Source: Cyanophora paradoxa CCMP329
Taxonomy: Eukaryota > Plantae > Glaucophyta
NCBI GenBank assembly: GCA_004431415.1
Contig: QPMI01000647.1
Location: 1 to 64,000 of the forward strand
DNA: 64,000 nt
Reading direction: 5' to 3'
Position numbers and translations under genes: made by a program. Shown here one piece after another: positions 1 to 19,825 of the stretch. The stretch's first letter is position 1. The number at the start of each line of letters is the position of its first letter. The notes beneath the pieces are model-generated. The model saw nothing but the letters and a program-made list of their open reading frames with translations. It made no database searches and had not been told where the DNA came from.

Positions 1-867
1 TTCATCTGGGCCATAACGAATTTCGAGTATAAATGAGCACAGGACCTCCATTTAAATCAGCAATTCGCTGCATAAAATCGTAAATCTCAATAGTCACAGA
101 GTAGAGGTCCAGCTTTGAATAAATATACTTGTACAAAGGATGTGCTTCAGTTGAATCATAGTATGCTATCTCGCCTGGACGAAGGACGCTTGGAATGCTC
201 AGCTTCGAGAAGAAGCCAGGTATTGACGTGTTCGGCATACTGACAAGGTCACCAATTTCAGGAATTCGTAGGAGCACATGATCATCAGGAGTGACATCAG
301 GCTCATAAGCGCCTGCTATATATTCAGTATTTATAGATAATGTCTTTGACCGAATCGGTAGAATTGATCTCAGCCCTAGAAGCTTTGCAGTTCGCTGAGC
401 CCTTGCAACGGCCTGGTAGTTTCTGACTTCCCGCCCACCCTGGTTCGTTGGCAACATCAGAGCAATAAAGAACTCGAAGTTAGCTGTGAACCCTATTAAT
501 TTGATCGCTGAATTATACGTGCACGTGATACCTGTTCCGTCAACCTTTCGTTTATCTCTGTCACAAGCGAGGTGACGTCGTAATTTCCAGGTGGAATTGC
601 AATGTTATCCACGCTCCAAATCCGGCCTGAGGTGGGTCGGTCCTTCATTAGTGGGATCATATTTGCACCAATATATATAGTGTTAAAGACTAAATCCTCT
701 GCCGGATCGAGTACATCGATTGTGCTCATAGTGTTGGGGATCTCAGCTGATACCAAGCGCACGGCTTTCACATCCTGATAAACTTTAGGCAGTCTTACTT
801 TAAATTTCGAGGTGGATGTCAGCTCCTCCGCTTGGTGACTTGCAATGCAGACGTAGTCCGTAGGCAT
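1..867 (-). CDS. Minor capsid protein (penton, single jelly-roll), frameshifted; joins ORFs 496..867 and 2..457
   Basis: N-terminus FKVRLPKVYQDVKAVRLVSAEIPNT, IPPGNY motif, DDHVLLRIPE and the C-terminal LYSVTIEIYDFMQRIADLNG all fit PLV/NCLDV minor capsid proteins. One missing G near 537 joins the two ORFs (LT-G-TGITCTYNS...). Confidence 0.8.
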
Positions 868-893
868 CTTTTTATATCAGTTAGAGAATAAAA

Positions 894-1811
894 ATGGTCA
901 AAGACAAGCATCGACGCTGCGCCAGGCTTACCTTTGACAGCAGAGACAGAAGGCCAATCGATTCAGAGGCAAACTTCGTGCTCGAAATCAATGAACCGAT
1001 AATCAATCCAGTTGCTGTTCGACTAACCCAGTGTGAGTTCGCAAACAGCCTTTACACCAGCATTAAAGCTGAGTATCTTTCCATCACCTTTCCCTACCTT
1101 GGAACGCAAAACGTGGAGGTGTTTGAGCCTGGCATAATTACGACTGCAAATCTGGGCGAAACAGATATTTACAACTTTGGCCTATCATTTAATATTGAGC
1201 TAGAAGGGATTTCAATTGCGTATTTTAAACTATTTCGAGACCCAGAGACGCTGAAAATGTCTGCGTATTGCAACCGTTCCTGCACACTGACCTGCCAGTT
1301 CAAAGCCTTATCGAATCTGCTCGGGCTGAACCGAAATGAGCCCCTCCAGCTGTCTCCTATTGTGCTTGAAGGGCCGCAAAGACCAGCAACTGCAGCTGAG
1401 CGGTATCTAGAGGTTGCTGGCATTCCAGTGACACCTGCTCACCCTGAGTACGGCGTGGATTTCACCGGAAGAATGCAGAGTATAGCACTTGGTTACGCCG
1501 TCGAATTTCCAAAGATAATCGACATGAACAGCGACCAGTACCTCTTCCTTGTCTGCGAAGAGCTACGGCCGTTTGCTTCGAAGCTTCGCCGTGGGGCTAA
1601 ATCAATGTGTAATTACGGGCTCGCTCGAATCCAGATGAGCCAGGATGTTGGCAAGTTCGTTTATATAAATCAGGAAAATGACGGCGAGTGGATCCACATC
1701 GAAGAGCGCCTGGTGCTGACCTCTCTGCGACTGCGCATTGTCGACAGAGATGGTGATGACGTCTCTCTGAATGGCCTGCCTTGGTCTGGTGAACTGCAAT
1801 TTCTAGTTTAG
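894..1811 (+). CDS. Minor capsid protein (penton), second paralog
   Basis: LTFDSRDR N-terminal motif, PVAVRLTQCEFANS, DQYLFLVCEEL, ARIQM and the C-terminal LTSLRLRIVDRDGDDVSLNGLPWSGELQF. Confidence 0.85.
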   Translation: MVKDKHRRCARLTFDSRDRRPIDSEANFVLEINEPIINPVAVRLTQCEFANSLYTSIKAEYLSITFPYLGTQNVEVFEPGIITTANLGETDIYNFGLSFNIELEGISIAYFKLFRDPETLKMSAYCNRSCTLTCQFKALSNLLGLNRNEPLQLSPIVLEGPQRPATAAERYLEVAGIPVTPAHPEYGVDFTGRMQSIALGYAVEFPKIIDMNSDQYLFLVCEELRPFASKLRRGAKSMCNYGLARIQMSQDVGKFVYINQENDGEWIHIEERLVLTSLRLRIVDRDGDDVSLNGLPWSGELQFLV

Positions 1812-3283
1812 GTAACGTCCCCGGAAATCAAGCCGGAACGCGTTCACATTTATAAATTCGTTTGTTATAATTTGCACATAGTTATACACCTGTGGGGTGA
1901 TCAAGTGCGAGTCACTATGCATTATATCGAAGCCTGTCATAGATGGGTTTGCAGCAAGCACATTGGCTAGGACCGTATTTTCAAATAGTGACCCGTCTCG
2001 TAAATATCCTAAATTGGTCAGAATGCTGAAATTAAATAGGACTCCGGCGGCAAAGGCTGGCCCATACATAATTATTTGATGTAGCTCAAAAGGCTTAGGA
2101 AACTCGACTTTGATCCAGGGATTAGGTAAAGTGCCCCTTGGAACCCTGTTGAGTTAGGTCGAACGTGAGAAGGTGGGTGCAATTCCTCAAAGTCGTTGCT
2201 TGTGATGTTTGCATCTGGAATTATAAACCAGTTGACATCAAATGGCGGCTCAACTGTTAAGGTAGACGATATGATAAGTCTCTCATCGTTCAGTAGGTCG
2301 TAGTTCGCCAGTAGAAAGCTGCAGAGTGCATTTATTTTAGCATTTATTTCGGTTTGTTTCAGCCATAAATCAGTCGTGGAAATCAAATAAGAAATATTCG
2401 AAGGGGAGGCATCATCAAGCTTGCTCATAACTGCAGCTGGCAGCGGAACACTTAAACGCCAGTATCTAGTTAAATTTCTATCTGCATCAACTGGAAGCAG
2501 CTCCTGCATTTGAAAGTGCGATTCCAGCTCGCTCCCAGCCATTAGCATAGAAATAATTGGGCTGCCTGAGAGGATAAGATCCAGCCCAGGGCGCCCCAGC
2601 CTGACGTCTCCGCATTCGAAAAGCCTGCAGTCAGTTGCTCACTGGCTTGGACCTCACCACAGCTGATGCTCACAAGAACAATTGGATCCTCTGCATCATA
2701 AATTTTGCTGGCGTGGCTTAGCGCTGCAACTGAGGGATTATTTAAACAGGCGATGGCCCCATCAACAAGGTTTTTGTCTCCTAGAACCTTCGGTGGAAAG
2801 AATGTTGGCGCTGCAGAAGATGCTCTAACTGCATCACGAATCAGCGTGCTCGAGTATGGCCCATCTTTGGTGAAAACTACGGGCTGCATCCGAACTGTAT
2901 CAAACGCTGTAATTAATATGTCTTTGGTCGATTCTGCAATTGTGTAGTCTAGGGCAACGTCTGTGAGCACCGACTCCAGAGGGTTTCCATCATAGCGGCT
3001 TCCTGAGAGCAAGCTTGTGAGTGATCTCGGATTTGCGAATATTACAGGTAGGTTCGTTTGATATAAACTGAAGATATCACCTGCAGAATATCGATAAGCG
3101 AGAACAGAGCCTGGAGTTGATGGATAGCCAAACCGGCCGCTATTATTGCCCTGTTGAGGTGCCTGCAAAGAAATCAAACAGCTGTGGAATTGCTTTCCCA
3201 GTAATCGCCTCGATCCGCTGTAGAATTCGGGCAATGACTATGCCACGAGCACCTCCACCTGATAGTGAGAGAATGACCTTCAT
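1803..3283 (-). CDS. Patatin-like phospholipase with C-terminal extension, frameshifted (ORFs 3143..3337, 2542..3234, 2072..2548, probably 1803..2069)
   Basis: LSLSGGGARG oxyanion loop, GTSTG nucleophile elbow, RASSAAPTFFPP and catalytic DGA...NNPS. One missing G after GTSTG (~3150) restores GAIIAAGLA. Whether the distal ORFs belong to the same gene is inferred. Confidence 0.85.
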
Positions 3284-3306
3284 TTTTAAAAGGGGCTTAT
3301 ATAAAA

Positions 3307-6300
3307 ATGTCCTACATCTTGAAGAAGCCAGTACCACTTCGTAAAGCTCCAGATTTTGTGGATGATCGCATATAAATATTCGCGTATTTGGGAGTACTCT
3401 AATTGACTACAATGCTGACAAAGATATACACCAGACTGAGTTTAATCGCCCAGCTGCATTAATTCTGCGCAACGCACATGTTGGCGCCCAGATATTGCAC
3501 AGAGATTTTGTCTGGGTCCAGCTGAGAATTATGTTGCTGAAATAATCGGATCCAGGGCGTTGCCGCGGCACCTGCGAATTGCCTCCTCAGGCACAGTTTC
3601 CAAATATGATTCTGGTAGATTAATCTTTAGGCTCCAAAATGATAGAGGGGTCCACACATCAGCTCTACGTCTAATTGATGAATCCAATGCTGTCACAAAC
3701 AAGACTGCGGCTCACATTACAGGGCGAATTCTCCTTGGCGAAGAGTCGCAGACAAGCCGAAGGCAAGGAGCACTTGTGCTCCGCACAGCGACGCTGCGCC
3801 TGCTGGAATATCAGTGCTAGCATCGCAAATCCAGCGTTTCCCTGGATCTACTTTTTACAGCTGCACGAGAAGCGAATATTTTATACGGTTTTGATGTAAA
3901 TCAAATCGATACTGAGCCAGCACCAGGTTAGATATTCCTGGATGCACCTTGGGCTCTATCCTGATTGAAGCTGACAGGCACCTGCTCCCTGCGTTGCATG
4001 ACAGCTACGATCTAGGGCTCCGCACCAGGCAGTGGCGAAATATTCATGGAACAAATATTTATCAGGATGGTAAGAAGGTTAGCACTGAAGAGGAGGTGAT
4101 CAACATTTTCAACTACTACTTCGGACCTATTGTCCCTATACCACCTATACCACCTCTTCCAGGGCTACCGAAGCCGCCAACCCCGGACGGCCCAGGTCGA
4201 GAGCGAGTTGCTGATGAAACAGTTCCTTTCGTCAACATATTGTCAGTTGGGAGCAAGTTCGCAATAAACCTATCTTCGAACCGAAAAGCAAATAGATGAA
4301 CAGTATTTACCTCCTGAAATCGATATATTAGAGCTTGAAGAATACCAATTGTCCCAGATGAGGAAGAGTATTTACCTGACGGTTTCGACCCGCAAGAGTA
4401 TGAATATGATCAATATGACCCCAATGAGGAAGAGTATTTACCCGATGGTTTAGATCCACAAGAGTATGAGTATGAACAGAACTATGAACCCCACGAGGAT
4501 TATTTAGCAGATGGCCTCGAGCCTCCTGCTGTTGAGTATGCGCAGCCTTATGAACACCATGAGGAATTATTGCCAGATGGTTTACAACCTGAGATTTTTG
4601 AGATGTACCTTGACTGGGAGCAGATCAACAATAAACCCGCGAGATATCCACCAGAGGATCACAACCATGACTGGGATGAGATCTTAGGTAAACCTGAAAA
4701 ATATCCACCTGAAGATCACAGGCATGATTGGGGCGATATTGATGGAATACCACCTGAGTTTCCGCCGGAAGACCATTTACATATTTGGAGCGAAATACGA
4801 GAGCAGCCCACTTTTGCATCAGCAGGTAATGTTTTACTAGGAGATATTAACAATGGGGTAAGTCTCTACCAAAATATAGACACACCAGAAAGATTACAAT
4901 TAAATGATTACTATGTGAATCGCAAAGGAATCGATGCAGGCACCACAATGGAAGGCGAATTATACATTAGACCCCTACAAGAAATGGAATATTGGGACTT
5001 GGTGTGGTATTGAAATTAAAGACACCAAACCAGGTATCTATCTTACCAGCTACTATGCAGATGACATCCCAATGACAGGAGGATTGATCTCTCTACCATC
5101 TGATCCAGCAAACTATGATGATAAAAACGCAGCAATCCAAATTAATGTTACTGATGTGAGTGATTTAGATTCATCAAGACCGAAATTAATATTCAGCAGA
5201 GAGAGATTGTTACCAGATGCACTTTTGGGGAACCGAGATGACTATAAACAATGCGAGGTTGCATGGATTAAAACGAATTATAATGGTGGAGTTGGTGAGG
5301 GAGTTTTAGAAATTAATCAGAGGGCAGCAGCAAAGAATATTCACAATGAGACCATATCAAGAGTGGTAACAGAGGATTATCTGAGAGACAATGGAGCAAC
5401 AATCATCGCAGGAATTGCTGTGGAGGGTGCTTACCTTCCTCTCACTGGTGGAACTGTCACAGGTGATGTTCATGCTCCGAATTTCCTTGTTGATACTCCA
5501 AATGCTCAGACATTTCCTGTTGTTCACCCAGGTGCTGAATATATATTAGATGCAAACACTCCAATTAGTAGAGTCGAATTACCAACGAATTTCACCTTTA
5601 ATCTTGTAGATGTGTTCCCAAACAGCCATAATCTCATGTATTTCTCTTCTGAGAATTACCTTTCAGGTGCATTTTCGCCCATTGAACTCTCCATACCAAA
5701 GCAAAAGGTGAGCTACAAAGAACTCACAGATGTCCCGGCAGGATTTAGTGGTAAATGGACTGATATTACGGAGAAGCCAACTTGGAGTAGTGTAGCATTC
5801 ACAGGTGATTACTATGATTTATCAAGAATTCCCGATTTCACCACTTATATACCTCGTTGGATTGATCAAAGTGTAATTATATCAGAATCTACACTCCCTT
5901 TCAATGGGACATGGATAGACTATTTACTAAACCGAATTTGCATGCTGTGGCTACAAGTGGTGACTACAATGATTTAACTAACACCCCTACTGCACCGACC
6001 TTGCATGCTGTGGCTACAAGTGGAAACTATAATGATCTCGTTAATACACCAAACTTGCATGCTGTGGCTACAAGCGGGAACTATGACGATTTAATTAACA
6101 CACCCACTTCGCCACCTACTCACAATCACAGCATAGAGTTGCTTACGAATTTCGGTAATTATGTGAATGCAAATGCATATGTGCAACAGGGGACAGCGAA
6201 TGTAGTCATTCCTGCCGGAGTCTATTACAAAGGGGATTTTACCACAGTATCGGGAACCGTTACATTTTCTAACCCATATAATAGTGATCCAATAGTTAAT

Positions 6301-6534
6301 GCTACTCTCGAAAATGATATTATCTTAACAAGTGTCAATTTTACAAACAGCATATATATCTCCGCTGAATTTGTGAGTGGGAACCGTGTTGGTTTCAAAA
6401 ATAAATTCACTTGGATTGCTATATTTACTTGTTACTCGGACATCAATTATACGAATGTGCCCCAAAACGAAAGAACCCTTAAACTCCATTGGATTGCTGT
6501 CGGACCTCTCCAAAACAATAATATTCTCACGTAA
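3307..6534 (+). CDS. Large mosaic tail-fibre-like structural protein (~1,000 aa), broken by several frameshifts; may be two genes
   Basis: Near-continuous coding across ORF fragments. Motifs: LLPALHDSYDLG..RQWRNI, 4x acidic EEYLPDG repeats, 3x PPEDHxHxW, YLPLTGGTVTGDV, 3x LHAVATSG(D/N)YxDL and a C-terminal GTVTFSNPY...LHWIAVG lectin-like head. Confidence 0.7.
4355..4800 (+). repeat. Coding repeats: 4x ~21-aa acidic EEYLPDGxxPxxYEY followed by 3x ~18-aa PPEDHxHxWxxI
   Basis: Direct in-frame translation of 4358-4800. Confidence 0.85.
5938..6105 (+). repeat. 3x coding repeat TTGCATGCTGTGGCTACAAG... (LHAVATSGxYxDLxNTP)
   Basis: Near-identical copies start at 5938, 6001 and 6055. Confidence 0.9.
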
Positions 6535-6554
6535 TTATAAAGAGCAATTTAAAG

Positions 6555-7508
6555 ATGACAACTGTATTCACGCCTGTGTTTTCTTTGAGTGCAAGTGCTG
6601 TCCACAATGTCCAACACACTGTTTATGATTTATCTCCAAGCCACCCTTCGACTGAGACAGCGAAAACCGATTCTTTTAATGACCAAAGCATACTCAGAGT
6701 CAAAGAACTCCGAGCTGACAAGGCTGATGGAGTCGTTAAAGCTACTCAAATGATCGTATCTAATCGACCCGCAATCTCTTCGGGGCTGGTCACCAAAGAA
6801 AATCTATATGAAGGTCAACAGGATTCCAAAACGGCTTTTAATCCGGCTGATAGGAATTCGGCGGCTTTTCAAGTTTACAGTGGTGGGGCATGGATTGGGA
6901 CTGGACTGAGTGTGAATGGGACAGTGACAGCGACTTCTTATGGGGCTGTGAGTGCAACCACTGGACGTTTTCAGGTCTCTTGACAGGAAATGGTGGAGTG
7001 AAAACAACTTCTGTCGATTCAGGAGCAGATTCTGATATAGTTTTGAAGCGAAATAATACAACGATAGCCACCATCACAACTTCTGGTCTCAGTTTGGCGG
7101 ATACTAAATATTTGAAGGCTAATTTTACCCATCATGTCGTGTTTATCATGCAACATCTACTGCTTATACAGCTGGTCAGGTGATCAAATGGGCAAACATT
7201 TACTACAATGTTGGGGATGCTATAATTCAGCTACTGGTATTTTCACATGCCCTGTGGCTGGGATGTATGTTGTATCTTTTGGTGCATATGCTGATTCATC
7301 TACCTGTGATGTTGTGTGTCGACACAACGGTTCATCTACATTTTTAAGTCTTTTGAGTATAAAAACAACTTCAACACAAGGAGGAAGCCCTTGTGCAACA
7401 TTTAAAGCCAATTCGGGCGATTACTTTGATGTTGCTGTGTCCCAAGGGACAGCATCAATTATCGCAAGTCAACAGAGTTTCTGTGTTGCATTAATTTATG
7501 CAGTATAA
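6555..7508 (+). CDS. Fibre paralog 1 with C-terminal C1q/TNF-like head (frameshifted; ORFs 6555..6983, 6890..7183, 7134..7508)
   Basis: N-terminus shares RVKELRADK..GVVK with the two downstream paralogs. C-terminus YNSATGIFTCPVAGMYVVSF...GDYFDV...SFCVALI is a C1q signature. Confidence 0.75.
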
Positions 7509-7529
7509 TAAAATGTTTTGCTATAATAA

Positions 7530-7778
7530 ATGTCGAACATCTACCAAGTGGTTCTAACTGATACTGAAAAACTGGGAATGGAATACTGTGCCTACTCTGT
7601 TCAGGATTGGATCGATAATGCTGCTCATAATCGGGCGAGAATTGCGATTGATGAGATTGTGGACAAAGAAGTTAAATCGTGTATTGCCGCTGGAATTCCG
7701 ATTCCACTCACAAAGGAAGCGATTGTAGAGCAAGCGTTTGCAAGGGGACTGTTCGAAAGGCAAGCGAAATTCCTGTGA
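7530..7778 (+). CDS. Small protein resembling a phage tail-fibre-associated family
   Basis: LTDTEKLGMEY.A.SVQDWIDNAAHNRARIAIDEI resembles small proteins that I recall following C1q fibre genes in aquatic tailed phages (recognition from memory, not searched). Confidence 0.6.
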   Translation: MSNIYQVVLTDTEKLGMEYCAYSVQDWIDNAAHNRARIAIDEIVDKEVKSCIAAGIPIPLTKEAIVEQAFARGLFERQAKFL

Positions 7779-7923
7779 GTGCTCCTATGTAAAGAACTCG
7801 AATTCGAAGAATGAGAGATGGGTTAATTGTTATTTTTCATAGATCATGCATAAGAAAGGCATGTATCTTGCATGTCCTTCTTGAAAGTCGTTTATTTTTC
7901 TTTCCTTCTTAGTAAAAGAAGCA

Positions 7924-8769
7924 ATGGGTGAATATAATCGAGTTCAACTTCCAATATATTCCCTTGGATCCCCTGCTATGCACTTTCGCCAGCATGAAGT
8001 AAATGATGAGGTTCGTGGATTAGAATCCACAGAGAGACCCAATTCCAATGGTAACTCCTTTGATAAGAATTCGATTATTCGAGTTAAAGAACTTCGAGCC
8101 GACAAAAACTCAGGTGTGGTTAAAACAACTCGACTTCTTGTGACTAATGCCAACTTCTTTCAACCTACCAATGGAGGCCCTGATGCTTACAGTGTAAATC
8201 TGAAAGCTCTTGATTTCGATAAAAACACTGCTGCTGCTACAATTCGTTCAGGCGGTGCTTTTATTGGTGGAGGTTGCCGTGTATCCGGTCAACTCTCTTC
8301 ATCTGTTTCGTTTAATGATGTCCCTGATACTCTCGATCAAAATGTAGAGAATCCACAGCGTATTAGATTATATACACCTGTTGCACAGCAACCATTTGTT
8401 CAATTTTACGTAGGTTATACAGTTACACTTGCAACCTCTGAACTAATTGAAGGAACCAAAAGAGTAATGAGAGGTCTCGCCATTCCAAACGCCATGCTCT
8501 CTTTATGTAGAGCCAACAACAACCAGCCAGGTCACAGGTACTATTTCAGTGTGCAGGGATATGATCATTTCGGCACAGGCTTCTGTGTTTATAACAATAA
8601 TTTCACTTACGATTTGTTTGTTACAGACATTGGCAAATATACTATAACAATTATCGGTTTGAGAACAGATATAGCAGCTGTTTCAGTTCTCAGAGGTGTT
8701 ACTCCTGATACTCTTTCAGTATCAGGGTTTTACCAGGAACCAGATGTGATCGATGACCCCACTCCCTAA
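7924..8769 (+). CDS. Fibre paralog 2 (conserved N-terminus, variable C-terminal head)
   Basis: SLGSPAMHFRQH...IRVKELRADKNSGVVKTTRLLVTNANF...GGAFIGGGCRVSG. Confidence 0.7.
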   Translation: MGEYNRVQLPIYSLGSPAMHFRQHEVNDEVRGLESTERPNSNGNSFDKNSIIRVKELRADKNSGVVKTTRLLVTNANFFQPTNGGPDAYSVNLKALDFDKNTAAATIRSGGAFIGGGCRVSGQLSSSVSFNDVPDTLDQNVENPQRIRLYTPVAQQPFVQFYVGYTVTLATSELIEGTKRVMRGLAIPNAMLSLCRANNNQPGHRYYFSVQGYDHFGTGFCVYNNNFTYDLFVTDIGKYTITIIGLRTDIAAVSVLRGVTPDTLSVSGFYQEPDVIDDPTP

Positions 8770-8793
8770 AATATATATATATGTTTAATATAA

Positions 8794-9627
8794 ATGGCTG
8801 AACCACCTCCAATTGAGCGTATTGTTACAGCACAGCTTTCATTAGCTGCACCAGCTAACCACGTTCTGCAGCATGCTACTTTCGATGATGTAGAAGGTCT
8901 GCAATCAACAGAGGTTCAACCTACGATGAACACCTTCGGTTCCACCCATAAACTGAGATTGCAGGAACTCAGGTGCGATAAAAATAATGGTATAGTTAAG
9001 ACCACGAAATTACTTGTAACTAATGCGAATTTTAGTGCCCATTATGGTGATCCAGACAGTTATGGCGCCCCTCTTTCGACTTATTCTTTCGAGTCTAGGT
9101 CAGGAGCTATTAACTGCAAGACGGGGGGAGCATATATTGGTGATGGTTTGCGGGTTGGTGGAGCTGTTGGTGCTCCTCTCTTTGTTAATGATCAACCAAA
9201 CCCTATTGATCCTAACACGAGAATTCGAACCTATTTGCCAAGTATGAATGCACCATATATTATAAAGATCTTCCCAATCGTTGTTAATGAGCAGACATCA
9301 GTAGTTGATTCTCTTGTGGAAATTGGTGACCACTACAAGGTGGTTGTTGATATCCCTCCAGACGTCTACGCTGTTTGTCAAGTAGAGGGTGGAACCCCAA
9401 ACATTGCTGTGGTGATTACTCCATATGATAATTTCGGGATCGCTTATCATGGTGTAAATTTCGGCCTTGAAGACTACCAGTTCTTGGTGAGAGCTACAAA
9501 ATTCGGTATTTATAAATGCATTCTCTATGCAGAAAGAACCGATGCTATCGCAAGGCAGAATACCTATGCGGAGTACTACGGCACTAATAGGTACTTCCCC
9601 ATTTTCGGACAGGATACTGCCCCGTAG
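8794..9627 (+). CDS. Fibre paralog 3 (conserved N-terminus, variable C-terminal head)
   Basis: SLAAPANHVLQH...LRLQELRCDKNNGIVKTTKLLVTNANF...GGAYIGDGLRVGG. Confidence 0.7.
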   Translation: MAEPPPIERIVTAQLSLAAPANHVLQHATFDDVEGLQSTEVQPTMNTFGSTHKLRLQELRCDKNNGIVKTTKLLVTNANFSAHYGDPDSYGAPLSTYSFESRSGAINCKTGGAYIGDGLRVGGAVGAPLFVNDQPNPIDPNTRIRTYLPSMNAPYIIKIFPIVVNEQTSVVDSLVEIGDHYKVVVDIPPDVYAVCQVEGGTPNIAVVITPYDNFGIAYHGVNFGLEDYQFLVRATKFGIYKCILYAERTDAIARQNTYAEYYGTNRYFPIFGQDTAP

Positions 9628-9644
9628 AGAATATCCCTAATTAT

Positions 9645-9905
9645 TTGCCGAGACCTCTGATAATGGCCTCATGTCTTGCAGGAGTGTTTGAGTTGCTGCG
9701 TCACTTCCATTCGCATGCTCGCCTACAGTCGCATTGTTGTACAGCGGATTTAGATCTTTCTTTTGGAGGTGATCATGACAGCAACAGCGCCAACCGTGAA
9801 GCTGAACTCGAAGCTCTTCAGCACGTAGAAGATCCAGCACCGCCCGGTGTGCACTACCAGAGGGCCGCTCCGTCAATAATGTACCATCTATATCAGGATG
9901 CTTGA
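9645..9905 (+). CDS. Small hypothetical viral protein
   Basis: Fills the gap in the same orientation as the fibre cluster. Hydrophobic N-terminus and SHCC motif. The true start is probably the ATG at 9663. Confidence 0.4.
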   Translation: MPRPLIMASCLAGVFELLRHFHSHARLQSHCCTADLDLSFGGDHDSNSANREAELEALQHVEDPAPPGVHYQRAAPSIMYHLYQDA

Positions 9906-10000
9906 AGGCTCGCTGAGGTGGCCTCGACATCATTTTGTTTGCTTTTGAAAAAAAGAAACAGGGACAGCCAGCCGTTTCAAACACATAGATAGCTTTTTAT

Positions 10001-10564
10001 TTACGCCCTGTTTTCAATTGGGAAATTAAGACGTAGAAAAGGCCAGTCTGCCTCTGCAGTGTGCTCAAGTAGATACTGATCTCGAGCTCTGGCTGCTTCC
10101 TCCGCTGTGGAGAAGCATCCAACATCGATTGTTTTTCTATTTTTGCCAATGGTAGCAACCCATCTGCTTTTCGATCTGTTGTAACTCACTCCAAGGAATC
10201 CGCTGGTGTTATTCGAATTCTTGTCTCGATGCATTCGGTGCTGCTGTTTTGTTACGAACTTTAGATTATCTCTGCGACAATCCAGTTTATCCCCGCTGAC
10301 ACAGAGGATGCTATGATCTGCAGGAGCTTTCCCCTTCACCAGATCTCTAAATTTCTTATGCCATCTCTCTTCAGGGTGGAATGCTACTGGATAGCCATTC
10401 GAGTCTATGTAGAACCTCAGACCAGAGAATTTCTCCTCGTCATCTTTCGAGATTAGCACTGAGTGCACTGTGTTTGGTGTCTTCACCTGAATTGCAGAGT
10501 CCATGTATCTTCCTTTCGATAATATAAGAGATTGTGTTCTCTTTATGTCATACACACCTTTCAT
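10001..10564 (-). CDS. HNH-AP2 domain protein (nuclease motif degenerate)
   Basis: GDKLDCRRDNL (HNH remnant) followed by NNTSGFLGVSYNRSKSRWVATI...VGCFSTAEEAARARD (AP2 domain). Confidence 0.85.
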   Translation of the reverse strand: MKGVYDIKRTQSLILSKGRYMDSAIQVKTPNTVHSVLISKDDEEKFSGLRFYIDSNGYPVAFHPEERWHKKFRDLVKGKAPADHSILCVSGDKLDCRRDNLKFVTKQQHRMHRDKNSNNTSGFLGVSYNRSKSRWVATIGKNRKTIDVGCFSTAEEAARARDQYLLEHTAEADWPFLRLNFPIENRA

Positions 10565-10987
10565 ATTAAACCGGGAATTTCTAGTGCGGCCTCTCAGTGG
10601 ACACTAGAATGCCTAAGCTCATACCCTAAAGTGAATTCCCAATCAGCCTCAAAGGCTCTCCCGTTAGCTACCTCCTCGAAGCTAAATCGAATTTTATTTT
10701 TCAACCCCTAAGGTACCCACGCACACGCCCTCCGGCACGTAATAGCAGAGGGAAACGTGTAAAACGATTTTGGTACACGCACGGCAAAATCAGATCGATC
10801 TAGTGAGGGGAAGACGCTAAATACCCATGGAACCGCGGCCCGGAGCGAAGCGAAGTGGCCGTAAGCGGGGTCCATGGGTGTACAACATGCGTTTGTACAT
10901 ATAGAGCGGCATATACATGGAAGCTCGATCATCGAGGATAATGAATGGAATTGCCCGGCTGCCTCTAATCGATTATGGGATGCGCAG

Positions 10988-12699
10988 GAGGCGCTGGCGT
11001 ACTACTCGCGCTTCCAGATGGACACGAACGCCATCATCACGATGGCCGTAGTCGAGGGCTGGTGCGTGCTTAATTATATAAGCTTTGATTCGGGCTACTG
11101 TAAACTTGAAGACGCCCGAAAACTCTTAGTACTATCAGTATGCAGCACACTAAATATTTCTAGCTCTATTCGGATTCGGACTGCTTTGTTATCGATTCGG
11201 ACTGCTGTAAATATTAATCGCACCAAACCTTTTTAGTACTGTAAATATTTAATGTGCAGCGTACTTTATATTTCTAGTTCTGCTGCAGCAGCTTCATTCG
11301 GATCCGATATGTACCGATTATCCACGGCGACAATTGCGGTGCCGACACCGATGCTAGATACTAAACGTGGTTTTCTAGTTTCTAGTTCGACGGTTTCTCT
11401 ATCCTAAATATATACTATACTAATGCGCGCCAGGGCCTCGCTCCTGACGGGCCGCGACGTGCGGGCCGAGGCGCTGGTGGACCGAGCGCGGCGGGCATCG
11501 CTCGAGACGGCGCGCGGGGGCCTATGGACGAAGGAGACCGTCCGCATGCTCGACGCCGTCCTCAGGTCCGCGCACTTAGGCGTACCGAAATTCGTTCGAT
11601 CCCGAAATTCGTTCGATCCCGACGCCGTCCTCAGCTGGCGGGCCGGCGACGTGCCCGCCGCCGCCGCCGCCGTCGAGGCGACGCTCGCCTTCTGGCGCAC
11701 CCAGGTCCGTCGGGATCGAACGATTTTCGGGATCGAACGATTTTCGGGATCGACGCCGTCGCAGCCTTTTGCTGAGCGTGGTCGCCGCGCGCGCAGGTCG
11801 CCACTGCAATCTGGAACTGCATGCGTGCGCTCCGGATACCCGCCCCGCCCCGCCCCGCCCCGCCCGTGCTTCGGCTATGAACCATGAACCGCCCCGCACG
11901 CAGCGGCGATGCTAATCGCTCTGGACTTTGCGCTCTGGTGGCGGTGGGACTCGCGCCGCCGCCTGGCGGCCCTCGAGCCGGGGCGCCCCGCGGCCGCGGC
12001 CGCCCGCCCCGATCGAGATCGAGAGCCGCTCCTGCGGCGCCTCCTCTGCCTGGGCCCCCGCCGCCCACGCCGCCCCGCCTCCGCTGTCTTTCCCGCTCCG
12101 GTCGGGCGGCGCCCGAGCCTCGCGGCCAACTCCAGCACCTCGTCCTCCTTCTTCTTCTTCGCCGGCCCCCGCCGCTCCAGCCTCGCCACCACCTCCTCCA
12201 CGCGCCCCCCGAGCTCCAGCGCCGTCCACGTGCACCCCGCGGCCAGCGCCGACGGCGATACCGACGGCGCCGACGCGGCGCCGGTGCCGATGCCGGCGCC
12301 GGTGGCGACGCCCGTCACGGCGGAGGCGGCCGCGGCGGAGGCGGCGCGCGCGGCGGCCCTCGCCCGCACCGCCGTCGGCCTGGTCGAGCGGATGGCGCCG
12401 CGCTGGCTCCCCGCCCTCGCCCCTTCGCGCAGCTCGCGCGAGCGCTGGACCCCGACGCGCCGGCCCCGCGGCGCCTGTCGCTCCTGCGGACCGCCCGGGA
12501 CGCCTTCGTGCGGGGCGGCCTGCAGCCCTGGGTCGCCCTGTCTTCACTCTGGCTCGCCCGCTGCGAGCCCGAGCCCGACGACGCGGCGGAGGCGGCGGCG
12601 GCGGCGCGCCGCGTCGCCCGCGAGACGGGCCTCCGACTCCCGCCAGCGAAGACGGGGGCCAAGAGGGGTACCGACGAGTACATCTCCCTCTGGGTGTAG
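10988..12699 (+). CDS. Host multi-exon hypothetical gene (5' part uncertain)
   Basis: GC-rich exon-like segments (EALAYYSRFQMD..., ASLLTGRDVRAE..., LIALDFALWWRW...) separated by GT..AG introns. Confidence 0.4.
11586..11753. repeat. 17-bp tandem units (TTTCGGGATCGAACGA-type) in inverted orientation on either side of a small exon; related 18-bp units at 14359-14409
   Basis: CGAAATTCGTTCGATCC x2 at ~11587 and CGGGATCGAACGATTTT x2.5 at ~11711. GATTCGGGATCGACCGAA x~3 at ~14360. Confidence 0.75.
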
Positions 12700-13379
12700 C
12701 TTGTGTCTAAATATAGCTAGCTCCATATTAACGCGGGGGCGCGCGCCCCGTCTCCCGCCGACGTAGTCTAGATCTTCCAATTTGCAGGTCTCTTCTCGAT
12801 CAGTACTAGTACCGTAAGTAGTACGTCGATCCTTTTTTTATTGTCGTTTTTTTCGGCTCTTTAATTTGTCTGGTCGTTCTTCGTACTCTTAATCTTGTCT
12901 TAGTTATTTTGCTTTTTTTTTGTCCCTGTGCCCCTTGGCAGCCCCCGCAGTGCTGGTGTCTAGAGCCTGTGGCCGGTAACTCACCAAAAACAAAAAAAGA
13001 GGAATGCAAATCGCCTCTTGCGCAGTTTGATTTCCGCGCCCCCTGCGCATGCGCAATTTCGCGGTAGAATTTATGCGAGAGAATTAGGTCCCTCGCGGGT
13101 GTGGCGGAGGCGCTAGGCGTGCTTCCGTTCAAGAAGCGGCGGCGTCCCCCGTTCGCGGGGCGCAGAAATGCGCGCGCCTCGCGGGCGCTGTCGTACGTCA
13201 GTTCCCGTGCGCATGCGCAATTTCGCGCAGTCTCGCGCCATGGATTCGGAGCCCTCGCCTGTATGCATGCCACAGGCCGGCGAGGCCCTCGCGAAAGGAT
13301 CCAGACTCGAGCGGGGCGAGTTGAACAGTTGAACCAACATGTGCAAGAAAATTTAAAGAGACCAATACTGTAACCACTA

Positions 13380-14720
13380 CATACAAGGGATCACCCGGCC
13401 GTTCACAGGCTAGGGCGGCGAGGGGACGTCGGCGGGGCGGAGGCCGAGGGCGTCCCGCAGCCCGAGCGCCGCCCCGCCCCGCCGGCCCCGCCCTCCCCGC
13501 CGCATCGAGAAGCGCCCCCGCGACCTCCACGTACCCTTTCTGCTCTGTTTTCGGTGCGGGAAAGAGCGGCGGGCGACTGCGCGGGCGCACGCGGCAGGCG
13601 ATGTGGAGGGCGTCGCGCCGAACTTGTCCTGCGCGCAGAGCGCGGCGGCCGCCTGCGGCGAGTCCAGCATCGCCCGGAGGAGCGCGCCGACCTTGCCGCC
13701 CATCGCCGCGACGTGCAGCTGCGGGCGGGCGGGGGAGCGTGAGGCGCGGGGGCCGTCGGCAGAGGCCGACAGATCGGAGCGCGCACGGGGGTGCGGCCGG
13801 CGGCGTCGGGGGCGAGCAGGTCGGAGGCGGCGACGAAGGCGCGGGCGGCCTCCTCCAGATCGCCCCGCGCGCCCGCCCACTCCTCCCGCAGCTGCCGCGC
13901 GTGGGCGTGCAGCGGCGTCTCGCCGGCGACATTGCGGAGGGCGGCCGCCGCGGGGCACGCCCCCGCGAGCTCCCGCAGGAGGGCGAGGCCCCAGGGCCCC
14001 TGAAGGCGGCGCTCAGGTGAAGCGCCCCGTTCCCCTCCGCATCCTGCGCCCCGCTCGGCGGTCTGGGGCGAAGGGGGCAAGGGGCGGGCGGGCGGGGCAG
14101 GCCTGGGCGGCGGGGTCCGAGTGCGGGAGGAGGCCCCGGGCGACGGCGAAGCGGCCGGCACGGCAGGCGAGCATCAGCGGCGTCCGCCCTGCCCGCGCCG
14201 CGCCTCAGAATCAGCAGAATCAAGGGCAGGGGCGGGCGGGCGGGCCTTCGGGATCGCGGAGGGCGCAGGCGGCGCGGGATCGCCCAGGGCGGCGAGGGCG
14301 GCGGGCAGCGCGTCCTCGCTCAGCGTCGTCGCCGCCTGCCGCACAGCGAGGAACAACGGATTCGGGATCGACCGAAGATTCGGGATCGACCGAAGATTCG
14401 GGATCGACGGTGCACGCACGTAGTGGATCGGCGCCAGGCCGAGCGCGTCGAAGAGCTCCGCGCGGGCGCCCGCGCGTGCAGCATCTCGACAACCTTCAAC
14501 CGCAGGTTCCTCCGTAGCTCGCGATCGCGGCTGCGTGATCGCGAATCCGCTTTTTCGCTGGTCTCGCTTGGGGAGGCGGTGGCGAGGAAGACGGGGGAGG
14601 GCTGGCCGGGCGGGGCGCGGTGCACGTCGACCCCGGGGCCTCCAGCAGCAGCTCCGCCGTCCCCAGTCCCGCTCCGCGCACGCGTGCCACAGCGCCGTCC
14701 TGCGCAGGCGTCAGCACCTT
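13380..14720 (-). CDS. Host ankyrin-repeat protein (multi-exon, approximate limits)
   Basis: QDAEGNGALHL, RNVAGETPLH, DAAGRTP/LHVAA, QDKFGATP and GYVEVAGALL ankyrin motifs across exons. Confidence 0.7.
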
Positions 14721-14863
14721 GGCAGATCGTTTGGTGGGCTGTTAGAAATTGCGCACCGCCCGTCCGACGAAGCCGCGTTCACGTCGACTTCGGGCCGGCT
14801 CAAAAACAGCTGCGGCCAAGATACACAGGCTTTGAGTCAGGCGGTCTAAGAGCAAAGGGAACT

Positions 14864-16770
14864 TTAGCGCCCGCAGATCAATATTCGAACCTTGATCGCA
14901 TCGGACCACAATTTCTCGGTCTCGCTGTCCGGCCCGTACTTGGAGAGCACCTTGGCCTTGCCTCTAACGGCGAGGTAGAGGGGCGCGTTCCCGTCCCGGT
15001 CCGCGAGGCCAGCGTTTAGCTCCGGCCGCTCTAGAAGGGGGTATAAGCAAAGTATTTTAGATCTAGATATCTTGCACGCACCGAACAACTTCGACAGCGT
15101 CTCGAATAATATGTAGTCGTACGCACGCATTGCTAGATCCTCGTTGAGGAGAACGTGCAGCGGGGTCAGGCCTTCGTTGTTGACGGCGTTCACGTCGGTG
15201 GAGCGCTCGAGGACGGCGAGGAACGTCGGGGTGTCCGTGCGGACGGCGTAATGCAGGGCCGTGCAGCCGTACTGGTCGCGGGCGTTCAGGTCGAGCCCCG
15301 GGACCGACAAAGTCACGTGCCACATGCACGCGATGCGGCTGCCCTCGGCCTCGTCGTACTCTTTGTGCTGCGCCTGGGCGGCCTGCTGTCTCATGTAGGA
15401 GGCCACATCGCTGAACGGAGCGTTCGCTTGGGGGCGGCGATCGGGACTGGAAGCGTCGTCCGTGCAGCGAAAGGCGCTGGGCCCTGCAGACGCGCTGGTG
15501 CCAGCTGCAGGCTTGAGCGACGGGAAGGCGTGGGCGGGGTCGGCCCCGGGGAGCGCGAGGAGGGCCCGGACGAGGCCCATCGCCCCAGCCTCGACGGCCT
15601 CCCGCAGCAGCTTCGCCGCCGTGTCGCCCCACTCGATCGCGCCGGCCTCCACCAGAGCCAAGATGCCGCCCTCCAGCCGCTTAAACTTCGTCCCCGAACA
15701 CCGGGACAGGAAGTGGCACCAGTACTGCTTGACCGCGCGGTCGAGGGGCGAGATGCCCCGCCGGTCTGCGGCGCCCTCAGCTCGTCAAAACTCGTAAATC
15801 ATTATAATTATCTCAATGGGGCCTAAAGCTAAAATTATTCCATGAACGATGCATATCGATGCCCGGCCCTTTCAGACTCCGGGGCCAACTTCGGGCACCT
15901 TTGACATGGATGAGGCTCGGGTGGGCGCGCAGAAGCGCCCTCACGACCTCGAGACCGTGATCCTCGCCGCGCGTGCACGCGCGCATCGCGGCAAAGAGGG
16001 CGTTGTCCCCGTACCCGTTCTGGGCAGCCCTCGTTCAGATACATACGACGAGGAGAGCGAGCGCTGCTTGAAGGTAGCCGAAGAGAGATTAACTGCAAGC
16101 TTAAGCACCTGGAGAAAGGGGTCGGAGCCGAGGGCGAGAAGGACCGAGACGGCTGTTTCGTGGCCGCGTGCCGCGTGGGCGTGCAGTGGCGTCGCCCTCC
16201 GACGCGTCCAAGTCCGCGCGTTCGCGAGCGGCGCGAGCCCCAGCGAGCGCAGCCGCTGCGGCATTGGCGTGAGGGGCTGATAAATCAAATATGAGCATTT
16301 GCAATTGCCAGCTTAATATCAATCGCAAGCTCGAAGTTTGAGTTCTTGATTAGAAGGAACTCGAGCTCGCCACAGACCTTGGCAAGGTCGGCCGCGGTCG
16401 CTGGTCGCGGTCGCTGGATCAATTGCAAGTGAAGCGCAGTGGCGCCCTCGACATCCGCATTGGGCCCGCCGTCTCTGCCGTGTGCCAAAGTTCAAATAAA
16501 GGGACCTGTACGTCAGAAAGAGCAAGTTGCTTAGACCTATAGAACGCCTTGTTGGGGAGGAAGGGAAAGGGACTCCCCTGCAAATAGAGCCAAAGAGTCA
16601 GCTGCAGAGCAAACGGCAGCGCCCGGAGCCTGCGAGGGCGCGCACCCAGCGCTTGGCGGGGCTGGCGGCGAAGTAGGGGTACGGGTGGCACACGGCGGAC
16701 GTGTCGGCCCCCGCCTCCTTGAGGCGCCGGGCGAGGTCGAAATCGCCGGCCTCCACCGCCGCTGCAAATT
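14864..16770 (-). CDS. Host ankyrin-repeat protein (multi-exon, approximate limits)
   Basis: DLNARDQYGCTALHYAV, DVNAVNNEGLTPLHVLL, DRDGNAPLYLAV, TPLHAHAARGHETAVSVLLALGSDP and DVEGATALHL. Confidence 0.75.
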
Positions 16771-16933
16771 TATAAGTAGAGAAGTTCAGGCGGCTGGAAA
16801 GCGTCGCAGATTGGGCTGACCGAGAAAGGGCGTGCGGCCTTCGGCGTTGCGGGCCTCCAGGCCCGCGCAGGCGTCGCCCGGCATCTTGGCGAGCGCAGAG
16901 AAGAGCCGGTTGAAAGTTCCCGGATCCAGCGGT

Positions 16934-18838
16934 TTAGGGTCCAGTATCCTTTCGGGGCTCAGCTGCGCTTGCGTTCGTTAGGGTCCAAAGGAAAACGCAA
17001 GCACGGGGCGGGCCCAGGGCGGTGCGGGGCCGACGAACCCCGCCGAGGAGCTCGCGGTCGACGATCCTGATCTCCGCCCGCCTCTCGAAGCGTTCGAAGG
17101 CGGACTCGTATCTTCCCTCGGTCCAGAATGGCGAGCCTACACCTGAAAATCTGCAGCAAGGCGTTCGAAATGGTGTCGTCCCGCCAGGAGCTCGATGCAG
17201 CTGCTTCGCCAAATCTAGATCTAGATCTAGACGCACGCTTGCAGTCAAATTCTGCCAAGCGAACCTTTTCCACACTTCAATCAGCGATTCGTCCCTGTAA
17301 GTTCTTTTATCGAAGTCCAGGTCCTTCTTGAGCCGTACCTGTGCCAACTTTATGAGACAAAACAAGCTACTTGATCACGAACGGGCTTAAGCGCACGAGG
17401 TAGAGGTCGGCGAGGGACGGGTGCGCGTTGACGAAGTCGACGAGGAGGCCGTCCTTCACGTCCGAGTGCGACAGGTCCAGCGCCCGCAGCCGCGGGAGCC
17501 TGCACGCGCGACCCGTCGGACAGCGTTGACGAGCCCAGCTTGCACGAATGTTATACATGTTAATACGACTGCGCACCTCAACTCGGCGATGGGCAGCAGA
17601 ACGGACATGGAGTGCGCGCGAAGCTTTTCGTCTTCGTCAGATCGGAAGGAATAGGATTTCTTCTTCTTCGAGAAGAGACAGGCGACGAGTGTGTTTCTGC
17701 CGGAAAAGTGACCGGGGCTTGAGCACGAAAATTGCAATCGGGCGGGGGCGGGCGGGGTGCGGGGCGGACGAGAGGAACAGGCTCTGGAGGGTGGCCGAGG
17801 CGCCCGAGACGACGGAGCGGAGCGCGTCGGGTGTGATGATGACGTCGGAAAGGTTCAGAGTGACGAGGGATCGCAGGGGCGGCAGACTCCGGATGACGAG
17901 CTGCGACAAGCCATTCGGAAGTTAAGCAATCGGAGCACGATTCGACATCGCTGCGCACCGGATGAACGATTCCCAGCTCGTCTTGCCGCCTTCGGTCGCC
18001 GTAGGGGTCACGATCGTACTCCCCGTCCTCGCTCTGGTCCTCGCTGAAATGCTTGACGTCGTCGGCCCTCGGGACGCGCATGTGCGCCAGCGAGAGGTGC
18101 GTGAGATGAGGCGTCCTCGAGAGCACCTGCGAGCGATGGCCCCGGTCAGCTTGCAGTCCGATCCTTAGCTCCCATGGCCAGTTCCTCAGCTAGTCCTAGC
18201 CCAGGCCTTGATCATGAGCTTCTCTCACCACGTTCACGATTCGGGAGGTCTCTTCGGACCCGAGCTCGCGGAAGAAGAAGCCGCTGAGGCAGAGCCTACG
18301 GACGAGGTGGCCCGCGTGCTTCAAGCACGCGTCGACAAGCGGGAGATCGCTGTCCCGCTCGCGCGTCGCGCCCAGCTGCGCGGCGCGACGTCGGCGCGCG
18401 TCAGCGCTCGCGTGGAGATATGAGCGCCGAGGCGGAAACGGGGCTTGCCCCGAAATCGGGCTCCTCGAAGAGCGCCGCGTGCCAGCACATGCCCCGCAGG
18501 CGGCGCGAGGCGCCGCCCAGCGACCGGACGAGCCCGAGGACGCCCTCCGTCCGCGCGACCTCGCAGTAGACGGCGAGCAGGATGTCGTCTGCGGGCCGCG
18601 GGGCAGCGATCAGCGCGGCGTCGAGGGATGCGGCCCGCGGCAGCGGATGGGCGCTGAGCGGATGGGCGCCGGCGTGGAACGCACCTGGGAGGCGCTCGAG
18701 CGCGGACAGTGCCGCAGAGCTGCTCGGGCCCTCCGCCCGCGCGCTGCGCCGCCGGCTTTTGACAGGAGCCCCACACGCTGAAGTGGAGGCGCTCGCCGTG
18801 TCATTGGGCTCCGGCTGCTTCCGCTTCCTGAGCTGCAT
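16934..18838 (-). CDS. Host F-box/leucine-rich-repeat protein (multi-exon)
   Basis: LERLP/DDILLAVY...ASRRLR F-box-like N-terminus. LRR units: PHLTHLSLAH, SLVTLNLSD, TLQSLFLS and PRLRALDLSHSDV. Confidence 0.65.
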
Positions 18839-19529
18839 GGCGCCGACGAGCGCTGGCGGTGCAAAGAGCGGCCAGCCGGGTACGACCTCGCTGTCCGCGG
18901 CCGGGTACGTATACACGTGCATGCGCAGTGCAAGCCAGCAAGCTCAAGCTCGAGCCAGTGACGTTGACCAGGTCGCGTGGCCGGCGTGTGACCAGGTCGC
19001 GTCACACACAGACTCGCGTGACCGTCGGACCTTGGCCGCCGGCGCAGCAGCAGCAGCAGCAGCCAGCCTGGCAGCGGGCTCGAGCGAGGCGGAGGCGTCC
19101 AGCTCGAGCTCGGCGCCGGCGGCATCCAAGTCGAAGAAGCGGAAAGGCGGCGGCGAGCTGGCGAAGCTGATCTCTGAAACGTGGCAAGAAGTCAAGATCA
19201 CCGAGAGCCGGAGGCGGAGGGGGCGCCCGGAGGGCCGGGGCAGCGAGAGCGAGGCAAAGAGGGCGGAGAAGGAGCGGGCGAAGGCGGGGAGGAAGGCCAA
19301 GCGGGAGGAGCGGCGGGGGCGGGAAAAGGAGCGGGAGAAGGAGAAGTTAAGGCGACAAGCTGCACGGAGCCAGCGTGAGCGCGCCAGGTCTAGAGCGCGA
19401 GCTGCACGCGTCCAGAGCGGACTTGGCTTCAGCTAGCGATACTAGCTAGCGCGTCTAAGTATGCGCCTAGCGCACTGCATTCGAACGCGATATCGATTGC
19501 TTGCATTGGAACATGTACATCGTGAGGGG

Positions 19530-19825
19530 CTACCGGGGGAGGCGGGGCCGAGGCGGCGCCCGATCGGTCGCGGGCGGCGCGGCGGGCGCCGAGGAACCGC
19601 GCGGCCGGCGGGGCGAGGGCGGCGAGGGTGCGCGCCGCGCGGCCGGCGGCGCGGAGGGCGTCGGGGTCGCCCCACGCGCCCTGCGCGGCCCGCACGGCCG
19701 CGATCGAGGCGCGCATGAGGACGCGCAGCTCGGGCGCGAACGGCTGCCGCGCCGCCGCGTACGGCTTGACGGCTCCCTCCATCTGCGCGCACTCCTTGAC
19801 CCACTTGCTCCGTACCGCGTCCGGC
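19530..19825 (-). pseudogene. 3' tip of duplicated filamin-gene fragment, copy 1, separated from the rest by the Polinton insertion
   Basis: DAVRSKWVKECAQMEGAVKPY... matches the other three copies and continues at 31354. Confidence 0.85.

What the first reader, a model, noticed from the sequence alone, without database searches (positions are those of the whole stretch)
1..10710. Endogenous tailless eukaryotic DNA virus carrying a bacteriophage-style fibre arsenal
Seen: about 6.3 kb of the visible 10.7 kb encodes four fibre-like proteins built from tailed-phage motifs, next to two pentons and a patatin. Known: Polinton-like viruses and virophages have jelly-roll capsids without tails. Inference: this is a vertex-attachment and entry module (pentons + multiple fibres + phospholipase) assembled from phage parts. 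It may define an undescribed PLV lineage with broad or switchable receptor use, possibly binding a host cell, prey bacteria or a helper giant virus.
Basis: partly seen in the sequence, partly recalled or inferred. Interest (0 to 1): 0.82.

Follow-up and report, generated by a model that had tools for sequence, protein, structure and literature searches.

The report
Algal provirus with two pentons, fibres
This is the right end of a multi-copy virus integrated in a likely algal genome; its two different vertex-protein genes, four fibre-like genes (two with phage-tail-type parts) and a lipid-cutting enzyme likely form its attachment-and-entry kit, a design already reported for polinton-like viruses apart from the second vertex gene.

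Summary
Bases 1 to ~10,887 (not 10,710) are the low-GC right arm of a multi-copy endogenous virus. It encodes two unalignable pentons, a patatin likely fused to a discoidin domain, four fibre-like genes (5.76 kb) and an HNH-AP2 nuclease. The frameshifts are absent from short-read contigs, and 43 of 61 listed variants are synonymous, so the family is likely intact. Fibre A carries phage-tail repeats. Fibre B's C1q head plus the small gene behind it recur as a pair in phages. Fibre D is predicted to trimerise (0.70 against control 0.00). C and D show no phage sequence homology. The capsid, ATPase and integrase genes lie outside the window and no genome is held, so the lineage cannot be placed; a polinton-like virus is likeliest. 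The concept is published: phage-like fibres and patatin-discoidin fusions in glaucophyte PLVs (PMC12220804), fibre and lipase in Gezel-14T virions. Not found in print by my searches: two divergent pentons in one PLV, and three fibres sharing one N-terminal domain with heads that vary among copies. Earlier scan notes describe hairpin-ended PLVs and another fibre-bearing element in this genome; none matched this DNA by sequence.

The parts
1..867 (-). Penton (minor capsid protein) 2, about 290 aa, frameshifted in the window, runs to the window edge
   Evidence: 30.7 bits on penton profile A1 against a best shuffle of 6.2; weak DUF5901 hit E 0.014; indels in contigs at 38, 536, 638
894..1811 (+). 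Penton 1, 305 aa, intact, head-to-head with penton 2 (26 bp apart)
   Evidence: Profile hits PBCV-1 P1v1 and P1, E about 2e-6; 7 relatives at 23-30% identity; not alignable to penton 2 by blastp, best E 0.32
1803..3283 (-). Patatin-like phospholipase, likely fused to a C-terminal discoidin (F5/8 type C) domain, about 495 aa across 4 slips
   Evidence: Pfam Patatin passes in two pieces; glycine loop, GxSxG and DG motifs present; piece 1806-2153 nearest to F5/8C clusters at 0.96 in the ESM Atlas, no direct Pfam hit; the fusion is inferred
3412..6534 (+). Fibre A, about 1,040 aa across 12 slips: acidic repeats, 3 PxDHxHxW repeats, 3 LHAVATSGxYxDL repeats, beta-rich C-terminal head
   Evidence: Minimum of 12 slips, 11 of them accounted for by contigs; PHROG tail families; 447 and 33 phage records hit; 668 longer relatives; repeats listed; head unassigned
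6555..7508 (+). Fibre B, about 318 aa across 3 slips: shared N-terminal domain, short shaft, C1q head
   Evidence: Pfam C1q 26.0 bits, cut-off 23.7; contigs with 0 substitutions and 3 gaps in 4 runs; N-terminus aligns with C and D
7530..7778 (+). 82-aa gene, candidate fibre chaperone or partner; possibly longer (indel at 7743)
   Evidence: 44-53% identical to phage genes that lie directly behind C1q-headed genes
7924..8769 (+). Fibre-like protein C, 281 aa, paralog of D
   Evidence: 33-36% identical to D over its length; no phage or family hit
8794..9627 (+). Fibre-like protein D, 277 aa, predicted homotrimer with a beta-sandwich head
   Evidence: Trimer score 0.70, best control 0.00; head resembles H-type lectin and fibre-tip folds only weakly, Z up to 5.2; two relatives at 64-65%
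10001..10564 (-). HNH-AP2 homing-type endonuclease
   Evidence: Pfam HNH_3 and AP2 pass; phrog_99 E 4.5e-27
10587..10887 (.). Likely right terminal repeat, about 300 bp, with an imperfect 57-nt hairpin at 10823-10879
   Evidence: Contig 10587-10887 has 2.2 times the depth of the adjacent HNH contig in run X4; a low-depth flank contig starts at 10860 in 3 runs; hairpin z -2.05 to -2.77

Best explanation
The stretch is the right arm of a multi-copy endogenous virus, likely a polinton-like virus of a protist, and its genes likely build the vertices and entry tools of a tailless jelly-roll capsid. Shown: two penton-family genes, a patatin, a C1q head, phage-tail repeats, many related copies under purifying selection. 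Predicted: fibre D, and by paralogy C and B, forms trimers with an intertwined shaft and a beta-sandwich head. Inferred: the fibres dock on pentons at the five-fold vertices, B, C and D through their shared N-terminal domain; the heads bind glycans on the alga's own surface; the discoidin domain would hold the phospholipase at the membrane, which it would cut to let the particle in or out of the endosome. The phage-type repeats and the C1q-head-plus-small-gene pair were likely taken from tailed phages, and heads likely get exchanged among copies.
For: Penton identity. GC island and a sharp right boundary with a doubled-depth end. Contigs of the HNH gene run at about 8-12 times the flank depth in 3 runs (the tool warns that depth is no copy number). 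Frameshifts absent from contigs that otherwise match exactly. 43 of 61 listed substitutions synonymous. Trimer 0.70 against best control 0.00, runs agree in at least 76% of contacts, pLDDT at least 51; the mark was reached by 21 of 30 solved homodimers and 0 of 23 monomers of microbes, 17 of 29 and 0 of 30 in eukaryotes. C1q gene directly upstream of the 82-aa homolog in 15 of 17 viral loci with an upstream ORF and in 2 of 2 named phages. Nine differing contigs upstream of 7529 in run X2. The same kit is published for PLVs.
Against: No MCP, ATPase, integrase, replicase or left end is visible, and none of 8 locus scans returned a relative with a penton or B/C/D gene in context. The penton's best solved matches are from a giant virus, and pentons do not separate PLVs from virophages, mriyaviruses or NCLDVs. 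The monomer model of D is poor (pLDDT 45.8) and its fold matches are within the common range. The trimer calibration was made on two-copy jobs. The patatin-discoidin fusion rests on 4 slips, of which only 2 were among the indel rows shown. Docking, glycan binding and virion incorporation are untested.
Confidence: 0.74

Rival explanations
1. The arm belongs to a small Nucleocytoviricota relative (mriyavirus-like, 35-45 kb) or to a larger giant-virus insert, where more than one penton type and phage-like fibres are already known.
For: Best solved matches are chlorovirus P1 and P1v1; DUF5901 hits; two minor-capsid types or a penton duplication occur in some Yaraviridae (PMC11253617); an earlier unchecked note reports a Gamadviridae-like element with fibres in this genome whose coat gene lay outside its window.
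Against: The neighbouring complete PLV's penton scores 60 bits on the same profile, so the profile is not NCLDV-specific. A short terminal repeat with a hairpin and high copy number fit the PLVs noted in this genome. No look-alike window by sequence.
Confidence: 0.13
2. It is an endogenous virophage proper, and the fibres attach it to a helper giant virus or to the host during co-infection.
For: Virophages integrate, are AT-rich and carry pentons; mavirus virions hold a predicted alpha/beta hydrolase (PMC6048507); phage-tail repeats occur in Organic Lake virophage.
Against: The profile search of solved structures gave the chlorovirus pentons and no virophage penton at E up to 10. Patatin-discoidin is reported for glaucophyte and rhizarian PLVs.
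Confidence: 0.06
3. This copy, or the family, makes no capsid of its own: the arm is a decayed or satellite cassette that lends vertex proteins and fibres to sibling viruses.
For: At least 20 frame breaks in the window copy; no MCP seen; the neighbouring 11.5-kb PLV shows no fibre gene among its ORFs of 90 aa or more.
Against: The breaks vanish in short-read contigs and variants are mostly synonymous; the arm is cut by the window edge, so the missing MCP means nothing.
Confidence: 0.05
4. A bacteriophage contig was mis-joined to eukaryotic DNA.
For: Fibre A repeats, the C1q pair and the HNH-AP2 gene all have phage relatives.
Against: Two pentons; 19 DNA-type runs of one organism hold 0.69-0.74 of the words; a contig bridges the end into the low-depth flank; no terminase, portal or HK97 capsid hit among 16 ORFs.
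Confidence: 0.02

Closest known systems
Glaucophyte and rhizarian PLVs in Bulzu-type survey PMC12220804 (section 13 part 1, passages, Supplementary Fig. S6 text read)
   Same: Phage-like fibres as a general PLV trait; discoidin fused to patatin in Glaucocystophyceae (n = 11 with discoidin) and Rhizaria PLVs; a PTR-PTR-H_lectin fibre in one Cyanophora PLV; small phage chaperone genes next to fibres; proposed role in attachment and entry.
   Different: No C1q head, no three-paralog fibre set and no second penton in what I read; Pfam PTR and H_lectin did not score on fibre A here. Their per-element annotation table (Zenodo) was not seen, so this very family may be in their set.
Gezel-14T / PgVV-14T (10.1101/2022.07.28.501842, passages)
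   Same: Long phage-like fibre (Ltf) and a putative lipase found in virions with MCP and penton; a homing endonuclease in the structural module.
   Different: One penton and one fibre named; alpha/beta hydrolase instead of patatin; gp36-like repeats.
Tetraselmis PLVs TsV-S1, S2, S3 (10.1101/2025.10.09.676808, passages)
   Same: Structural arm with penton, tail fibre and FA58C (discoidin) protein clustered at one genome end.
   Different: Stand-alone discoidin protein, one fibre, one penton named.
PBCV-1 pentons P1 and P1v1 (PMC9617893, passages)
   Same: Two pentons of about 10% identity in one virus; sequence profile similarity.
   Different: Giant virus; P1v1 is 530 aa and carries the spike at a unique vertex, while both pentons here are about 290-305 aa and no unique vertex is shown.
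C1q-headed fibre plus small downstream gene of Synechococcus phage S-SRM01 and Limnohabitans phage DC33
   Same: Gene pair and order; 47-49% identity of the small protein.
   Different: In phages the pair sits among tail genes; here the head is grafted on an N-terminal domain with no phage homolog found.

Membership tests
Polinton-like viruses | Single jelly-roll minor capsid protein (penton) | tested here: met
   Profile hits PBCV-1 P1 and P1v1; second gene 30.7 bits. My own fold prediction failed (pLDDT 30.9).
Polinton-like viruses | PLV-type double jelly-roll major capsid protein | not testable with these tools
   Outside the window; no genome held; no related locus found.
Polinton-like viruses | A32-type packaging ATPase | not testable with these tools
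   Outside the window.
Polinton-like viruses | Terminal inverted repeats, 14-40 kb length, target-site duplication | tested here: inconclusive
   Right end with a doubled-depth segment of about 300 bp; left end not visible.
Polinton-like viruses | Integrated, GC content far from the host's | tested here: met
   0.438 against 0.675; junction contig in 3 runs.
Virophages (Maveriviricetes / Virophaviricetes) | Virophage-type MCP, ATPase and cysteine protease (required, PMC9952930) | not testable with these tools
   Outside the window.
Virophages (Maveriviricetes / Virophaviricetes) | Virophage-type penton | tested here: inconclusive
   No virophage penton listed among 3 PDB matches at E up to 10; sequence search only.
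Mriyaviricetes / other Nucleocytoviricota | VLTF2, VLTF3, HUH endonuclease, NCLDV-type MCP, 35-45 kb or larger | not testable with these tools
   None in the visible arm; the rest is outside the window.
Tailed phages (Caudoviricetes) | Terminase, portal, HK97 capsid, tail tube | tested here: inconclusive
   No such PHROG hit in 16 ORFs of the arm; upstream unseen; pentons argue against.
Trimeric viral fibres | Homotrimer with shaft and C-terminal head | tested here: met
   For D only, as a prediction: 0.70 against 0.00, interface 93-134 and 205-247. A, B and C were not folded.
Patatin phospholipases | Glycine loop, GxSxG nucleophile, DG aspartate motif | tested here: met
   All three present across the breaks; Pfam passes. 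Activity untested.

The most novel reading that the evidence does not exclude
A small polinton-like virus builds two kinds of vertex, as PBCV-1 does: one penton type carries the long fibre A and the lipase at a special entry vertex, the other carries the three short fibres through a common docking domain, and the endogenous copies act as a library of exchangeable receptor-binding heads taken from phages.
Probability: 0.2. Interest if true: 0.65.

Novelty: new member of a known kind. Interest (0 to 1): 0.33.

Why it matters
As a class the finding is known: PLVs carry phage-like fibres and lipases. What this copy adds is an unusually full kit in one arm, with two unalignable pentons, three fibres on one shared N-terminal domain and signs of head exchange among copies. 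If the two pentons mark two vertex types, a small virus with many endogenous copies in a likely culturable alga would be a simple system for asking how PLV particles choose and enter a host, which has not been shown for any PLV in the papers I read.

Tried and rejected
No genome held, so no upstream sequence. Word-index homolog search with penton 1: nothing. Locus scans with penton 1, penton relatives, D, the C/D alignment and the patatin: nothing in viral or metagenome contigs; alignment A1 had no searchable stretch. Single-sequence fold of penton 1 failed (pLDDT 30.9). P0006 is a repetitive plant protein, left out of A1 as chance. Foldseek of D against the PDB: no match at E 0.001; BFVD hits are phage tail-like but with TM about 0.25-0.3 on a poor model, a lead only. 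ESM Atlas for D: viral clusters at 0.93-0.94, no family, recognition below the tool's mark. My by-eye reading of fibre A's head as an H-type lectin was not confirmed. PDB sequence searches for the discoidin piece and C/D: nothing. No RNA holder was listed; run X20 holds only a few pieces at depth about 2. My recollection that mavirus-like elements have a second penton was wrong: MV14 is of unknown function. Searches for two pentons in one PLV (passages) gave no report. Look-ups of earlier findings by sequence, by words and nearby: nothing relevant. Prey-bacterium binding set aside: no evidence, and glaucophytes are phototrophs not known to feed on bacteria (recalled).
Full report
What is there. 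The first 10.9 kb of the window are AT-richer than the flank (GC 0.438 over 1-10887, 0.675 over 11500-19800) and densely coding. From left to right: two head-to-head penton genes, a patatin, four fibre-like genes with an 82-aa gene among them, an unassigned ORF, an HNH-AP2 nuclease and the end of the element. The window cuts the element at the 3' end of penton 2, and no genome is held, so everything upstream is unseen.

It is an integrated, multi-copy element. Of 24 listed runs, 19 hold 0.69-0.74 of the sampled words and carry one organism label. In three runs a contig starting at 10860 runs into the flank at low depth (25.7, 74.7, 89.2), while the HNH contig lies at 295.5, 581.9 and 768.2, about 8-12 times higher; in run X4 the contig 10587-10887 lies at 1685, 2.2 times the HNH contig, as a repeat present at both ends would (the tool warns that depth is no copy number). 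The end is therefore near 10,887, not 10,710. An imperfect hairpin sits at 10823-10879 (z -2.05 to -2.77, 3-5 of 200 shuffles as good). Terminal palindromes are reported for Halocafeteria PLVs and virophages (10.64898/2026.07.28.741278, passages) and in unchecked notes on 28-kb PLVs of this genome. Those notes name the host as the glaucophyte Cyanophora paradoxa; I did not test this.

The frameshifts are likely assembly errors. Fibre A needs at least 12 slips and fibre B 3, patatin to discoidin 4. Contigs covering 6902-7558 match with no substitution and exactly 3 gaps in four runs, and 4935-5080 with no substitution and 2 gaps. The indel tables showed 12 of 40 and 12 of 18 rows; most shown rows are a single G or C missing beside the same letter. 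The neighbouring element has split genes too, and false frameshifts in long-read assemblies of such elements are documented (PMC10120064, passages). These contigs pool sibling copies, so real breaks in this one copy are not strictly excluded. Of 61 listed substitutions that fall in assignable frames, 43 are synonymous and 38 are at third positions (only the best-supported rows were shown, 40 of 315 and 40 of 61; frames chosen by me). The family is under purifying selection.

Two pentons. Penton 1 has 8 hits among 1.84 billion representatives, 7 of them full-length relatives without names and one a repetitive chance hit that I dropped. Their profile matches the PBCV-1 pentons P1v1 and P1 (E 1.7e-6, 2.2e-6) and DUF5901 in 3 of 8 members. 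Penton 2, read with X at breaks, scores 30.7 bits on this profile against a best of 6.2 in 500 shuffles, yet does not align to penton 1 by blastp (E 0.32). They are old paralogs or of separate origin. PBCV-1 uses two pentons of about 10% identity, one at the spike vertex (PMC9617893, passages), and some Yaraviridae have two minor-capsid types (PMC11253617, passages). Three paper searches and four passage checks found no PLV with two pentons; the library is incomplete and bioRxiv supplements were closed.

Patatin-discoidin. Two pieces pass Pfam Patatin and the catalytic motifs are present. The last piece, 1806-2153, has no Pfam or PDB hit, but its nearest Atlas cluster scores 0.96 with F5/8 type C in 49% of members, and 10 of the 10 best family hits share the clan. 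The fusion is inferred.

The fibres. A (about 1,040 aa) has acidic repeats, three PxDHxHxW and three LHAVATSGxYxDL repeats; pieces hit PHROG tail families, 447 and 33 phage records annotated partly as tail proteins and 668 longer proteins, mostly through the repeat. Its head is unassigned. B ends in a C1q domain above the Pfam cut-off. The 82-aa gene behind it has phage homologs at 44-53%; my script found an upstream ORF in 17 of 23 viral loci, 15 of these 17 carry C1q, as do both named phages; the 15 are about eight distinct sequences. The pair is thus a phage module. B, C and D share an N-terminal region of about 120 aa (32-36% identity) with only 3 unnamed relatives found and no phage match, so 'built from phage motifs' is not shown for C and D. 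D's monomer model is poor (pLDDT 45.8); its head ties at Z 5.2 with Helix pomatia agglutinin (rmsd 3.5, 88 aligned), WSSV VP37 and TcpB, followed by phage and pyocin fibre tips, all within the range the tool calls common. As three copies D scores 0.70 against a best control of 0.00, with at least 76% agreement between runs and pLDDT at least 51; the mark was reached by 21 of 30 solved pairs and 0 of 23 single chains of microbes, 17 of 29 and 0 of 30 of eukaryotes, on two-copy jobs. The confident interface covers residues 93-134 and the head, not residues 1-58, which fits free docking arms. In run X2 nine differing contigs lie upstream of 7529, and summed depth is high over B's start and the 82-aa gene but low over B's head: copies likely differ in this head.

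How it likely works. Shown: the gene inventory, copy number, selection, domain matches. Predicted: trimeric D. Inferred by analogy to adenovirus (recalled) and to Gezel-14T, whose virions hold MCP, penton, a phage-like fibre and a putative lipase (10.1101/2022.07.28.501842, passages): fibres dock on pentons, their heads bind host surface glycans, and the glycan-anchored phospholipase opens the plasma or endosomal membrane. I put this at 0.74; the main rival is a small Nucleocytoviricota relative (0.13).

Comparison with what is known. PMC12220804 (section 13 part 1 of 2, passages, supplement search, supplement 2 part 1 of 2) has a section on phage-like fibres in PLVs, reports discoidin alone, paired or fused to patatin in Glaucocystophyceae and Rhizaria PLVs, one PTR-PTR-H_lectin fibre in a Cyanophora PLV, and the same entry hypothesis. 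Tetraselmis PLVs cluster penton, tail fibre and discoidin on one arm (10.1101/2025.10.09.676808, passages). Lipase and phospholipase clusters are shared by Gossevirus PLVs and virophages (PMC7805220, passages). The element works like these PLVs; membership cannot be completed without MCP and ATPase.

Verdict. A real and likely intact element, correctly read as an attachment-and-entry module, but of a published kind. What remains open and worth a look is the second penton and the three-fibre set with varying heads. New member of a known kind; interest 0.33.

Noticed in passing
window 19826-31353: A second, complete and small (11.5 kb) polinton-type element: 404-nt perfect TIRs with AG..CT ends, 5-bp target duplication, rve-like integrase, helicase with a polymerase-like upstream frame, penton (60 bits on profile A1), a split MCP-like gene and an A32 ATPase; no fibre or protease gene recognised. 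The MCP and polymerase labels are by eye.
   Followed up: partly
window 10823-10900: Imperfect terminal hairpin containing GCGAAGC, followed by a second short palindrome across the likely junction.
   Followed up: partly
window 3744-3844 and 6961-7826: Sibling copies skip or replace these stretches: a variable segment near fibre A's start, and a low-depth variant that skips B's head and the 82-aa gene.
   Followed up: no
window 9953-10565: One low-depth contig in run X1 skips the HNH-AP2 gene, as expected of a mobile homing endonuclease.
   Followed up: no
window 9637-9996 (-): ORF of about 115 aa without any family hit.
   Followed up: no
window 31353-42000 and 48000-50500: High-GC host repeat of about 4 kb in several copies; the second element is inserted in one copy.
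   Followed up: no
window 30389-30537: 12-bp tandem repeat inside the second element next to its right TIR.
   Followed up: no
L001-L025: The 82-aa protein family has no Pfam model and follows C1q-headed genes in freshwater phages; a candidate unnamed fibre chaperone.
   Followed up: partly
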